Of a stretch of DNA of 17,566 nucleotides, positions 9,001 to 12,000 are shown one piece after another. This stretch comes from a virus (Duplodnaviria > Heunggongvirae > Uroviricota > Caudoviricetes), in IMG/VR virus record IMGVR_UViG_2671181056_000012, positions 1-17,566 of that record; one strand, written 5' to 3'. The position numbers were made by a program. Position 1 is the stretch's first letter, and every line of letters starts with the position of its first letter.

Positions 9001-12000
9001 CCCAATTCAACCAACACAGGAAGAACATCAACAGTAAACTCAAGTTGGTAGTGAGCATTCATGCGGCAGAAAGACAGAGAAGAGTCATTAGCAACATACC
9101 CACACGGCTTGTTATTTTCATCGTAGACGCGCTCAATGTAGCCAGCAGTACGCAAGGCCGTTAGTGCTTCTTTAACCTTCGTAGCGCCCTTTTTAGCGCC
9201 TAACAGACGGGTCATTGAATGGCTATCTACGGATTTGCGAACATGAAGTTCAATCAGCTTTTTATTTTCGCGAGTTTTCTTTAATGCCAGTTCGATCCAG
9301 TCGGTTTCTTCAAAGTCTGCATACGGGTTAACAGCTAAACGTTCCTGACGCAGTTTTTCATTTTCTTCTTTCAGTCGTTTCCATTCCTGAATAACGATCA
9401 TTCGACGCTTAACATCGTAACCAGTGACAAGAGTCAGCGTCATTTCTTCGTCTAAGTGATATACTGGTTCTTTAACAGCATATCCTAAGTTATTGATTCT
9501 CTCGACAAATTCAGTTTTGAGCTGATCGATAATACCTAAAGATTCGTACATTTCGCGAATATCGCGCATTACATTGCTGTGCTTCTTATCGGTAAATTCA
9601 GCGATCTGACGAGAAGACATGGTCAGCGGTTTGGTGTTATCAACAACCAGAGACACGGAAGCAGTTTTAGCAGTATTCATAACGGTAACAGTATTCATAG
9701 TAAGATTCCCCTTAATTAACGGTTTTGCGATTTAATCCTCCGTGTTCCGGCAGCATCACCGGAACATTTTTATTTATGATAGAAATTTATTACCAATCGA
9801 TTTCTACTTGGTCTTCTTCATAATAAGGAATCGCATATTCATAACGCCAGTTTTCGATGATTTCACGTTCTTCATTAGTAAGAAGGTGATTGCTAACTGG
9901 AGTCGCATTGTGATTACCAGCTTCGAATTGCTCGCGAACTTCCAGCATTGCATGAATACCAGTTAAGGACATCAGATCAAACGGAACATGCATACTACGG
10001 GAGATAGTTTCACGGGATACGCCCCAATCATTTTCTACATGGCTAGGGCTTACAGAAACGGTTTTGCCGGAGATTTTAACAGTCCAGTCATACAGGGATT
10101 TAGTGATGGTAAATTCTTTCATGTTACATCCTCTTTACAAATCTAGGTCAAATAGGTTCAAAGTTGTCAAGTGCGATAATCATAAAAAAGTCAGAAAATT
10201 TTGTCAACACACCTTGACAAGACGCCAAAGTGTTGACCTAACTTACAGCATATCTAAGCCTTCATCGTAACCGTAGAAGCCATTCTGAGAAGAGAAACAG
10301 ATTGGTGTGTAGTCGTCGTCATCTTCGTCTTGTTCATCGTGTTCTGGGGCTTCCTGAGCGGGTTGTTTACCATAATCAGCCATAATCTGGTCAAGATCGG
10401 CGATCCCATAGTAAGAGCCTAAATCAACGTCATATTCACGAACATCAAACGGCAGGTCATCACGAACAATAATTGCCGGAATGTTGTTGTATTGTTCACG
10501 ACCTTCATCAGTAAAGCAGTCTACGATCACCGTAGGGCGACCATTACGTTTAAGAGCATAGAAAGCAGTTGAGAAATTGGAGTCTTCGGAATGACGAATG
10601 ATGTTATAACCACGATTAGCGAAAACATGCATCATAGCCAGATTATCATCATGGTTCAGACCCAGAAGAATGAAAGGAGTTTTAGTATTGATCATAGTGG
10701 AAATCCTCTAAAAGAAAGTGAATCAAACAAAGTACACTATTATTTATAACGAGAAATTTTTGTCTAATTTGAAAGGAATTGGTATTCAGTCGGCTTCGCC
10801 TCCTTCATAGATTTTGATTAAATCATCATCAAAACGAAGAAGTATCTTTAGAATATAAGAATCTTTCTTTTGGAGAAATTATAATCAGGAAGCAATTTAG
10901 CAACCGAAGGTTGCAATCCCGAAGGGATACCAATACCTTTCATGATCATTAAAGTGATCTAGAATCATCTAGTAACCAGTTAACTACTATTATCTTCAAA
11001 GTGATTATTACTATCTTTCTAGAATCAGTTAGTAACTAGTTTAAAATCCCTTTCAAGAAAATCCTTTCAGAAGTGATTCTCGATGCCACGCAGTGGCGTC
11101 GCAGACGTTTGAGAGTGAGCGAAGCGAGCGAGCAAACTAGTTAATTCCTTCTAAGACCATCTAGTATCATCTAGTTTAAATTAGTGTTACTAGAAGTAAT
11201 TGGTTAGCGCTTCGCGCAGTCGGGCTACGCCCTCCTAATATCTTTTTGGTTATTTGTTGTTTTTAGTTTTACACATGAGCGTAGCGAATGTGTTATATAA
11301 TATCTATGCACGCCCGATCCCCCGTTTTTGCCCCTCGCTAAGTTAATGTTTTATAAAGAGTTTTTCTCACCAATCCTTTTCGGGGGCAAATTTCAGGGGC
11401 AAAAATTAGATTTTCAGGGGCAATTATTGGCATTTCAGGGGCAAAAATGAGGGGCAAAATCACTGTTTCCCAGAATTTCAGGGGCAAAAATAGTAGGTTT
11501 CAGGGGCAAAAATGGGATAGTGAAATCTAGGGGATTTTGGTTCAGGGGCAAAATTCAGGGGCAATTTTCATAGTGTAGTGCTAGTGTAGGTTTGAAAGTC
11601 CTTTCTTGACACTATGTAGGTTTGGTGCTATACTTGACAATTCGAGAAAAAATGTGGTATAATATTTGTATTGAAAGTGAAAATTTACCGATTTTCCTTC
11701 CTATTGTTATCACCGTGTTAAATTGTTATATGTTTGTGAAGATTTGGATCTGAGAGAAAATCTTGTAACAAATCTTTACAATTCATAGCTCAATTAATGC
11801 TCACCGCTTTAGCAAAAAGTGCTATGCCTTTTTCTAAATTGATTGAATATACATCAATTTGGTTAATTCGTGCTCTCCGCTTTAGCAATTCGTGCTGCGG
11901 TTTAACACATTTAACACTTCTGATAACATCTGAATAACATTTTAACATATCTCTGTTATAAATACATATATAAGAGATAAATGTGAGGGGTTGAAAAATA

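What the first reader, a model, noticed from the sequence alone, without database searches (positions are those of the whole stretch)
9790..10695. Two orphan genes beside Rha, one with an extremely acidic C-terminal region
The 150-aa protein (10243..10695) has an Asp/Glu-rich C-terminal segment with aromatic residues, a composition seen in DNA-mimic anti-restriction proteins and some SSB tails. The 110-aa neighbour has its own tightly regulated promoter. Their position near an antirepressor-type regulator is typical of anti-defence or superinfection-exclusion cargo. This is composition-based only.
Basis: inference. Interest (0 to 1): 0.4.

Follow-up and report, generated by a model that had tools for sequence, protein, structure and literature searches.

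The report
Two orphan early genes beside Rha
Both genes are real but of unknown function in a little-studied E. coli prophage: one is a core gene whose conserved acidic, aromatic-tipped tail looks like a docking peptide rather than a DNA mimic, and the other is one of three interchangeable genes in a fixed, operator-controlled expression slot.

Summary
Both ORFs exist as described, on the minus strand. ORF150 (10243-10695) has pI 4.1, and its last 40 residues have 13 D/E, no K/R and 5 aromatics. Neither protein matches Pfam, PHROGs, NCBIfam, PADLOC, PDB sequences or any informative fold. Relatives occur only in one uncharacterised Escherichia/Shigella prophage lineage, present in about 1% of complete E. 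coli genomes.

Comparing 38 related loci separates the two genes:
- **ORF150** is a core gene of the lineage. It has a variable small alpha/beta domain, an acidic linker of variable length, and a C-terminal peptide (DYAPICFSS..GFYGYDEGLDML) under strong purifying selection. That peptide survives in relatives whose N-domain is only about 35% identical. This points to a docking peptide, not a rigid DNA mimic.
- **ORF110** is one of three unrelated ORFs swapped exactly from start codon to stop codon in one slot. The promoter (TTGACA-17-TATGAT) and its five invariant 7-nt half-sites belong to the backbone, not to ORF110, and probably also serve Rha.

The cargo idea therefore fits ORF110 but not ORF150, and no function is shown for either. 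Interest is moderate to low.

The parts
10243..10695 (-). ORF150, a core early gene of the prophage lineage (150 aa, pI 4.1)
   Evidence: ORF and translation. 75 homologue clusters, all Escherichia/Shigella. Present in 56 of 5426 genomes, against 54 for a backbone gene. Composition.
10366..10695 (-). ORF150 residues 1-110: small alpha/beta domain (4 strands, 4 helices). It is variable, with 5-6 deep haplotypes and no catalytic motif
10315..10365 (-). ORF150 residues 111-127: acidic linker of variable length and sequence, predicted disordered
   Evidence: pLDDT below 50. Indels and 9 alleles at 85% identity. 10 D/E within residues 111-130.
10246..10314 (-). ORF150 residues 128-150: conserved C-terminal peptide DY(A/T)PI(C/A)FSSxxGFYGYDEGLDML, the proposed docking motif
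   Evidence: It contains many of the family's invariant columns (D128, Y129, P131, I132, S136, G146, L147, L150). It is kept in distant representatives whose N-domain is about 35% identical. Window versus L007: pS 0.59, pN 0.07. 29 of 38 sequences fall in one 85% cluster.
10739..10766 (-). Candidate promoter of ORF150 (TAGACA-16-AATAAT), with a conserved TTATAAATAAT motif
   Evidence: Consensus scan, 10 of 12 positions. The -10 region and RBS are conserved across loci, while the -35 varies.
10145..10239 (-). Backbone promoter/operator block between ORF150 and the slot. Layout: AGGTCAA-12-TTGTCAA-6-TTGACAA (-35; hexamer TTGACA, 17-nt spacer) ... TATGAT (-10) ... TTGACAA-12-TTGACCT
   Evidence: Promoter matches 11 of 12 positions. 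The block is nearly identical in all 38 loci whichever gene follows. Half-sites show 0.20 non-consensus sequences per column against 1.94 for the other intergenic columns, Mann-Whitney p = 3.5e-6. 3 of the 5 TTGACAA and 2 of the 3 TTGACCT in the window lie here.
9790..10122 (-). ORF110, one of three alternative unrelated ORFs occupying the slot (110 aa, pI 4.8)
9742..9777 (+). Conserved hairpin between the slot and Rha. It reads as an intrinsic terminator only on the + strand, antisense to Rha
   Evidence: Terminator scan, fold. Two alternative stem sequences at the same place among loci.
8874..9698 (-). Rha-family regulator, last gene of the leftward unit. Its N-domain is hypervariable and its C-domain conserved
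   Evidence: Phage_pRha E 3.6e-12 and anti-repressor PHROGs. 11 N-domain types against 3 C-domain types among 38 loci. Terminator at 8865-8847.
10696..12084 (.). 1.4-kb non-coding control region from which ORF150-slot-Rha (leftward) and the 60-aa and 313-aa genes (rightward) diverge. It contains the iteron array 11378-11566
   Evidence: Repeats, promoters at 11606-11663. The iteron type tracks the right-hand gene, not ORF150.

Best explanation
**Layout (shown).** The two ORFs belong to the leftward transcription unit of the prophage's control region. The order is: weak promoter, ORF150, strong operator-flanked promoter, exchangeable ORF (here ORF110), hairpin, Rha.

**ORF150 (shown).**
- It is a core gene of the lineage.
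- It has a variable, non-enzymatic-looking alpha/beta domain.
- This is tethered by an acidic disordered linker to a 23-residue aromatic/hydrophobic C-terminal peptide that is strongly conserved.

**ORF150 (inferred).**
- The peptide is a docking motif that binds a partner invariant across all prophage variants. That partner could be a host protein or a conserved phage protein.
- This resembles how the acidic tails of SSB or T7 gp2.5 dock onto their partners.
- The domain supplies the effector or specificity function.
- The acidic run acts as a flexible, charged spacer rather than a DNA-shaped surface.

**ORF110 (shown).**
- It is one of three unrelated ORFs that replace each other exactly between the start and stop codons of a fixed slot.
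- All three use the same RBS, promoter and five invariant 7-nt half-sites.

**ORF110 (inferred).**
- The slot is an accessory-gene position. Its product is made together with Rha when a repressor common to all variants leaves the operator.
- ORF110 acts on the host or on competing elements, not in the phage's core cycle.
For: **Architecture and core status**
-.

**Fold and disorder**
-.

**Tail constraint**
- Many invariant columns lie in the tail.
- The tail is retained in representatives with about 35% identical N-domains.
- Where the tail DNA has diverged, the tip has pS 0.59 and pN 0.07.
- The linker has indels and 9 alleles.

**Independence from other modules**
- The ORF150 haplotype is not tied to Rha, the 60-aa gene, the 77-aa gene, TerL or iteron type.
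- This fits a partner that does not vary among prophage variants.

**Slot**
- Exact cassette boundaries.
- Three alleles.
- ORF110 is under purifying selection.
- ORF110 is present in 27 of about 56 genomes.

**Operator**
- Invariant half-sites against variable spacers, p = 3.5e-6.
- The half-sites cluster locally in the window.
Against: - No partner is identified, and no complex could be modelled.
- In some pairs the tail DNA is identical (window versus L003: pS 0), with a recombination breakpoint near codon 110. Part of the tail's uniformity is therefore block sharing with the adjacent invariant promoter.
- Low pLDDT in the tail may partly reflect a shallow, closely related alignment.
- The 38 loci are not phylogenetically independent.
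- Nothing shows when either gene is expressed.
- The operator-binding factor is unknown. Rha is an unlikely candidate because its N-domain has 11 types while the sites are invariant.
- An enzymatic role for the alpha/beta domain is not excluded by a weak fold match.
Confidence: 0.4

Rival explanations
1. ORF150 is a DNA-mimic anti-restriction or anti-defence protein. Its negative charge occupies the DNA-binding site of a restriction enzyme or another DNA-binding defence protein.
For: - pI 4.1, net charge -20, and an Asp/Glu run next to aromatic residues.
- It sits at the start of an early-looking transcription unit.
- A flexible acidic region can act as a DNA mimic in phage SPO1 Gp44 (PMC8208478).
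- The N-domain has deep allelic diversity, as expected for arms-race genes.
Against: - No similarity to any family in Pfam, PHROGs or NCBIfam.
- The acidic run is predicted to be disordered and varies in length.
- Selection acts on the aromatic tip instead.
- It is a core gene in every variant rather than variable cargo.
- N-domain pN/pS stays below 1.
Confidence: 0.12
2. ORF150 is a component of the lysis-lysogeny switch. It could be an anti-repressor partner or an adaptor. The variable domain would bind a phage regulator, and the conserved tail would deliver it to a host machine such as a protease or RNA polymerase.
For: - It lies in the most divergent, immunity-like block of the prophage. 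The 60-aa gene, ORF150, Rha and the 77-aa gene are 50-70% identical where structural genes are at least 90%.
- It is directly upstream of an anti-repressor-type Rha.
- About half of the related loci have tandem LexA boxes in the same control region.
- A variable domain joined to an invariant tail is the layout of an adaptor.
Against: - The ORF150 N-haplotype shows no significant association with Rha N-type, 60-aa type or 77-aa type (p = 0.07, 0.06 and 0.5), and the loci are non-independent.
- Tail variants do not track the Rha C-domain (p = 0.68).
- No resemblance to known adaptors or anti-repressors.
Confidence: 0.2
3. ORF150 is a replication accessory factor of the adjacent iteron region. 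Its tail would recruit or sequester a host replisome or repair hub. The end of the tail, x-[LF]-[DEQ]-M-L-COOH, loosely resembles a beta-clamp-binding motif (QL[SD]LF), and DDDYAPICF loosely resembles the SSB tip DDDIPF. Both resemblances are recalled from memory.
For: - It is the first gene next to an array of at least 8 iterons phased at about 10.5/21 nt.
- It has an acidic tail with a hydrophobic tip, as in SSB-type proteins.
- It is a core gene.
- The only annotated replication-type gene in the prophage is a UvsW-like helicase.
Against: - Iteron type co-varies with the genes on the other side (type A with the 313-aa gene in 19 of 19 loci), not with ORF150.
- The fold is not an OB fold.
- The motif lacks the Gln of clamp-binding motifs and the terminal Phe of SSB tips.
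- That the iterons form an origin is itself only inferred.
Confidence: 0.15
4. ORF110 and the other slot occupants are not accessory cargo. They would be interchangeable modulators of Rha expression or activity, in the same position as the small upstream ORFs of known anti-repressor operons (icd before ant in P1, arc before ant in P22; both from memory).
For: - The slot lies directly upstream of Rha under the same promoter, with no terminator in the sense direction between them.
- The slot is occupied in all 38 loci examined.
- Cassette GC content equals the backbone's, 0.41 against 0.42-0.44.
Against: - The three occupants are unrelated in sequence, size and charge: 110 aa acidic, 48 aa basic and 59 aa basic.
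- The slot allele does not associate with Rha N-type (p = 0.26).
- A 90-nt gap containing a hairpin argues against translational coupling.
Confidence: 0.2

Closest known systems
Acidic C-terminal tails of single-stranded-DNA-binding proteins (E. coli SSB tip DDDIPF; T7 gp2.5) that dock onto partner proteins (from general knowledge)
   Same: A folded domain, a flexible linker, and an acidic stretch ending in hydrophobic/aromatic residues at the extreme C-terminus. The tip is the most conserved part.
   Different: - The domain is alpha/beta, not an OB fold.
- The tip is 23 residues long and ends in DML, not IPF or a terminal Phe.
- No DNA-binding role is expected at pI 4.1.
- No partner is known.
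DNA-mimic anti-restriction proteins (Ocr, ArdA; general knowledge) and the flexible DNA mimic Gp44 of phage SPO1 (PMC8208478)
   Same: A small, very acidic phage protein at the start of an early-looking unit. Gp44 shows that a flexible acidic domain can mimic DNA.
   Different: - No sequence or fold similarity.
- The acidic run varies in length and is not the constrained part.
- Gp44 also has a DNA-binding motif, which ORF150 lacks.
- ORF150 is core, not variable cargo.
Anti-CRISPR/aca operons: variable small acr genes behind a strong promoter carrying inverted repeats, followed by a conserved HTH autoregulator (Aca2, PMC6765145)
   Same: - A strong promoter overlapped by conserved inverted repeats.
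- Unrelated small orphan ORFs interchangeable at one position.
- A DNA-binding regulator gene immediately downstream.
   Different: - The downstream regulator is Rha. Its DNA-binding N-domain has 11 types while the repeats are invariant, so it is unlikely to be the autoregulator.
- No Acr or Aca homology.
- No anti-CRISPR activity has been tested.
- Two of the three occupants are basic, not acidic.
Phage 'morons' (independently transcribed accessory genes present in some relatives and absent in others; general knowledge)
   Same: ORF110 is present in about half of the prophages and sits behind a strong promoter.
   Different: - It is an allele replacement inside a fixed slot, not an insertion.
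- The promoter belongs to the backbone.
- There is no flanking sense-strand terminator.
- Its base composition is not foreign.
Anti-repressor operons of P22 (arc-ant with sar antisense RNA) and P1 (c4 RNA-icd-ant) (general knowledge)
   Same: - A small ORF upstream of an anti-repressor-type gene under a repressed strong promoter.
- A hairpin in the inter-cistronic region that would terminate an RNA antisense to the start of the anti-repressor gene.
   Different: - No homology to Arc, Mnt, Icd or Ant beyond the Rha domain.
- No Rfam match to C4 or other RNAs.
- No antisense promoter was detected.

Membership tests
DNA-mimic anti-restriction proteins (Ocr / ArdA type) | Strongly negative overall charge | tested here: met
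   pI 4.12, net charge -20. The tail has 13 D/E and 0 K/R.
DNA-mimic anti-restriction proteins (Ocr / ArdA type) | Sequence or fold similarity to a known mimic family | tested here: not met
DNA-mimic anti-restriction proteins (Ocr / ArdA type) | Carboxylates displayed on a rigid scaffold with DNA-like spacing | tested here: not met
   The acidic run lies in a segment with pLDDT below 50 and has indels among homologues. A flexible mimic of the Gp44 type is not excluded.
DNA-mimic anti-restriction proteins (Ocr / ArdA type) | Relief of restriction in vivo, or binding to a restriction enzyme | not testable with these tools
   This needs plating assays or binding assays.
SSB-type proteins with an acidic docking tail | OB-fold DNA-binding domain | tested here: not met
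SSB-type proteins with an acidic docking tail | Disordered linker plus a conserved acidic tip ending in a hydrophobic residue at the C-terminus | tested here: met
   Residues 111-150 have pLDDT below 50. The tip is conserved and under purifying selection. It ends in ...DEGLDML.
SSB-type proteins with an acidic docking tail | Canonical tip sequence (D-D-D-I/L-P-F-COOH) | tested here: not met
   The sequence reads DDDYAPICF...GLDML. There is no terminal Phe.
acr-aca type anti-defence operon (for the ORF110 slot) | Unrelated small ORFs interchangeable at one position | tested here: met
   Three alleles of 110, 48 and 59 aa with exact ORF boundaries.
acr-aca type anti-defence operon (for the ORF110 slot) | Strong promoter overlapped by conserved inverted repeats | tested here: met
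   Promoter matches 11 of 12 positions. TTGTCAA-N6-TTGACAA lies over the -35, with outer AGGTCAA/TTGACCT sites. These are invariant against variable spacers.
acr-aca type anti-defence operon (for the ORF110 slot) | Downstream regulator that binds those repeats (autoregulation) | tested here: inconclusive
   Rha follows the slot, but its N-domain has 11 types while the repeats never change. Binding was not testable.
acr-aca type anti-defence operon (for the ORF110 slot) | Inhibition of a defence system | not testable with these tools
Moron (for ORF110) | Own promoter and terminator that come and go with the gene | tested here: not met
   The promoter, RBS and downstream hairpin stay when the ORF is replaced.
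Moron (for ORF110) | Present in some relatives and absent in others | tested here: met
   27 genomes carry ORF110 against 56 with ORF150. 20 of 38 loci have it.
Moron (for ORF110) | Deviant base composition | tested here: not met
   GC is 0.408 against 0.42-0.45 for neighbouring genes.

The most novel reading that the evidence does not exclude
Two separate novel readings remain open.

1. The invariant 23-residue tip of ORF150 could be a previously undescribed short linear motif. A temperate phage would use it to dock onto a conserved host hub, for example the sliding clamp, the SSB interactome, a protease or RNA polymerase. The rapidly diversifying alpha/beta domain would then be the effector or would evade recognition.
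2. The adjacent operator-controlled slot could be a discovery site for new anti-defence or exclusion proteins (ORF110 and the 48-aa and 59-aa ORFs), in an arrangement that parallels acr-aca operons but uses a different regulator.
Probability: 0.2. Interest if true: 0.6.

Novelty: new member of a known kind. Interest (0 to 1): 0.35.

Why it matters
- **ORF150.** If the tail is a docking peptide, it gives a short, testable handle (23 residues) for finding which conserved cellular or phage factor an uncharacterised E. coli prophage lineage targets early in its cycle.
- **The slot.** It offers three small candidate effectors behind one well-defined promoter/operator. This kind of locus has been productive for finding anti-defence genes.
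- **The wider region.** It contains interchangeable iteron/gene pairs, a hypervariable Rha DNA-binding domain and optional LexA boxes. It appears to be the control centre of a prophage with no recognisable CI-type repressor or replication initiator.
- **As it stands.** These are two well-delimited orphan genes with no demonstrated function. That is common in phage genomes.

Tried and rejected
**Homology**
- Pfam, PHROGs, NCBIfam and PADLOC found nothing for either protein. Scanning every member of the broad ORF150 alignment also found nothing.
- PDB profile searches found nothing.
- An exhaustive HMM search returned only the family itself.
- An ORF110 profile search added no relatives.
- tblastn of ORF150 against 50,697 phage records found nothing.

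**Fold**
- BFVD Foldseek found nothing for ORF110.
- The afdb50 library was unavailable.

**Spurious hit**
- The only species-representative genome hit (Ruminiclostridium) is a chance match to 'NGRPTVIVGC' inside a 387-aa repeat protein. I rejected it.

**Hypotheses rejected**
- ORF150 as the iteron-binding protein. Iteron type tracks the right-hand genes, and both major ORF150 haplotypes occur on iteron types A and C. An acidic protein is also unlikely to bind DNA.
- ORF150 co-evolving with Rha, the 60-aa gene, the 77-aa gene or TerL. No convincing association.
- ORF150 and ORF110 being related to each other. hhalign probability is 0.4%.

**Other checks**
- LexA control of this operon in the window: no SOS box near it, though related loci have boxes at the rightward promoter.
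- Known RNA families in the control region: none.
- Literature on this prophage lineage: nothing found.
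Full report
**1. Observation**

- Each has an AGAGGA Shine-Dalgarno sequence.
- ORF150 has pI 4.12. Residues 111-150 hold 13 D/E, no K/R and 5 aromatic residues.
- Rha (Phage_pRha, E 3.6e-12) follows at 8874-9698.
- Between the two ORFs lies a near-consensus sigma-70 promoter, TTGACA-17-TATGAT.
- Both are real genes. ORF110 has pN/pS 0.14 over 18 alleles. In ORF150, pN is well below pS throughout.

**2. Orphan status**

- Neither protein matches Pfam, PHROGs, NCBIfam, PADLOC or PDB sequences.
- Homologues are confined to Escherichia/Shigella: 75 clusters for ORF150 and 8 for ORF110.
- An exhaustive profile search of 1.84 billion representatives found 11 proteins, all in the ORF150 family or fragments of it.
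- No sequenced phage or plasmid carries the region or ORF150.

**3. Genomic setting**

- The window is part of a roughly 38-kb prophage found in about 1% of complete E. coli genomes.
- In strain UTME-12 it splits ycdX. In the window and several other loci it lies beside hicB.
- It encodes a large serine recombinase, a UvsW-like helicase, CapR/GIY-YIG nucleases, and lysis, tail and head genes, including a lambda-type TerL and portal.
- No repressor or replication initiator is recognisable.
- The closest TerL in a sequenced phage is 43% identical.
- The two ORFs lie between TerL and a TerS-like gene, next to a 1.4-kb non-coding control region. ORF150-slot-Rha runs leftward from it, and the 60-aa and 313-aa genes run rightward.

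**4. Structure**

- *ORF150.* AF2 gives a small beta-alpha-beta domain for residues 1-110 (pLDDT about 71-89) and a disordered segment for 111-150 (pLDDT below 50).
- No known DNA-mimic fold appears among the hits listed.
- The two families are unrelated to each other.

**5. Comparative anatomy of ORF150**

- Across 32-38 homologues the N-domain falls into 5-6 deep haplotypes, down to 42% identity, with some intragenic recombination.
- The acidic linker varies in length and sequence: 9 alleles, with indels.
- The last 23 residues, DY(A/T)PI(C/A)FSSxxGFYGYDEGLDML, are nearly uniform.
- They persist as DDDDYAPVVFSSNGCGYYGYNEAFDML in representatives whose N-domain is only about 35% identical.
- Where the tail DNA has diverged, the tip shows pS 0.59 and pN 0.07. 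This is protein-level purifying selection.
- In other pairs the tail DNA is identical, with a breakpoint near codon 110. Block sharing with the adjacent invariant promoter therefore contributes to the uniformity.
- ORF150 is a core gene. It occurs in 56 genomes against 54 for an independent backbone gene, with matching accessions.
- Its haplotype is not tied to Rha N-type, 60-aa type, 77-aa type, TerL type or iteron type.

**6. Comparative anatomy of the ORF110 slot**

- L012 is nearly isogenic with the window but carries a 48-aa basic ORF in place of ORF110.
- Homology runs through the promoter and RBS up to the start codon. It breaks only across the ORF and resumes right after the stop codon.
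- A third occupant, a 59-aa basic ORF, is seen in L032.
- Among 38 loci the split is 20 with ORF110, 17 with the 48-aa ORF and 1 other, independent of every other module.
- The 120-nt intergenic block is nearly invariant in all loci.
- Its five 7-nt half-sites are arranged AGGTCAA-12-TTGTCAA-6-TTGACAA (-35) ... TTGACAA-12-TTGACCT.
- The half-sites and the -10 hexamer are far more conserved than the spacers: 0.20 against 1.94 non-consensus sequences per column, p = 3.5e-6.
- These 7-mers cluster here within the window.
- The promoter therefore belongs to the backbone and probably also serves Rha. It appears to be controlled by a factor common to all variants. Rha itself is unlikely to be that factor, given its 11 N-domain types.

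**7. Interpretation**

- *Shown:* gene reality, orphan status, core versus exchangeable status, the domain/linker/tip architecture, selective constraint on the tip, and the conserved operator-like array.
- *Inferred:* ORF150 works through its C-terminal peptide as a docking motif for an invariant partner, in the manner of SSB or gp2.5 tails. The slot encodes accessory effectors co-expressed with Rha.
- The DNA-mimic reading is not supported by fold, disorder or the pattern of constraint. It cannot be excluded, because flexible acidic mimics exist (Gp44 of SPO1, PMC8208478).
- The slot resembles acr-aca operons in layout (PMC6765145), but the defining autoregulator link is not met.

**8. Limits**

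- The loci are phylogenetically non-independent.
- No expression data are available.
- The resemblance of the tip to clamp-binding or SSB motifs is recalled from memory and was not tested.

**9. Verdict**

- These are new orphan members of familiar kinds of phage early genes, of moderate to low interest. The 23-residue tip and the three-allele slot are concrete experimental handles.

Noticed in passing
window 11378-11566 (and L003, L006, L007, L017, L031): An array of at least 8 iterons (TTTCAGGGGCAAAAAT) phased at about 10.5/21 nt. Related prophages carry at least four unrelated iteron types at the same place. Each type comes with its own gene(s) on the right-hand side: type A with the 313-aa gene in 19 of 19 loci, and type B with the 349-aa and 363-aa genes. 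This looks like exchangeable binding-site/binding-protein pairs, serving as an origin, partition site or packaging site.
   Followed up: partly
window 10958-11183: A second repeat family, TCTAGAATCATCTAGTA(ACCAGTT), in four copies between ORF150 and the iterons. There is also a 37-nt imperfect inverted repeat at 10770-10806 / 10906-10942.
   Followed up: no
window 11606-12084: Two tandem, nearly perfect sigma-70 promoters (12 of 12 and 11 of 12 positions, both with an extended TG). A leader of about 420 nt follows. It ends in a terminator-like hairpin (12028-12042) about 40 nt before the 60-aa gene. This could be an attenuated leader or a non-coding RNA. There is no Rfam match.
   Followed up: partly
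L003, L006, L007, L015, L017-19, L025-26, L028-30, L032-34, L036-38, about 1.0-1.2 kb upstream of ORF150: Two or three tandem LexA-box-like sequences (for example a perfect CTGTATGAGTTAACAG) lie near the rightward 59-aa operon in about half of the related prophages. The window's variant has none there. SOS control therefore appears to be an exchangeable feature of the control region.
   Followed up: partly
window 8874-9698 and homologues: The N-terminal (pRha, DNA-binding) part of Rha falls into 11 types at 85% identity among 38 loci. Its C-terminal 130 residues fall into only 3 types. This pattern is typical of an immunity-specificity determinant.
   Followed up: partly
window 12085-12267, 8507-8740, 7876-8478: The 60-aa and 77-aa proteins are paralogues (35% over 52 aa, pairwise E 2e-8). 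The 77-aa protein also matches residues 40-97 of the conserved 200-aa protein (E 2e-4). They form a small family of basic, probably DNA-binding proteins with no library match.
   Followed up: partly
window 9742-9777: The conserved hairpin between the slot and Rha is followed by a T-run only on the + strand. It would therefore terminate an RNA antisense to the start of Rha. Two different stem sequences occupy the same position in different loci. No antisense promoter was found.
   Followed up: partly
window about 14380-15950: An IS3-family element (HTH_Tnp_1 plus rve ORFs) is inserted at the 5' end of the TerS-like gene. Only the C-terminal 127 residues of that gene match intact copies, so this prophage copy may be defective.
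   Followed up: partly
window 16823-17173; L001/L002: The prophage lies next to hicB in the window and in L003 and L007, but splits ycdX in strain UTME-12. The lineage therefore uses at least two chromosomal sites.
   Followed up: no
window 5883-7790 and homologues: TerL occurs as two deep alleles (about 59% against at least 90% identity) in otherwise similar prophages. The adjacent 200-aa and 164-aa genes stay at least 88% identical.
   Followed up: no
window 1742-3748: A single 668-aa ORF combines a prohead protease domain (Peptidase_S78), an acidic linker and a major capsid domain (Phage_capsid).
   Followed up: no
L005 about 10480-12468: A deleted remnant of the prophage. TerL is truncated and joined to the lysis genes and the serine recombinase, yet ORF150, the slot and Rha are retained.
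   Followed up: no
window 10739-10760 and 9768-9785: A similar motif, AATTT(T)CTnTTTATAAATAA(T/A), precedes both ORF150 and Rha in most loci. It may be a shared promoter element or regulator site.
   Followed up: no
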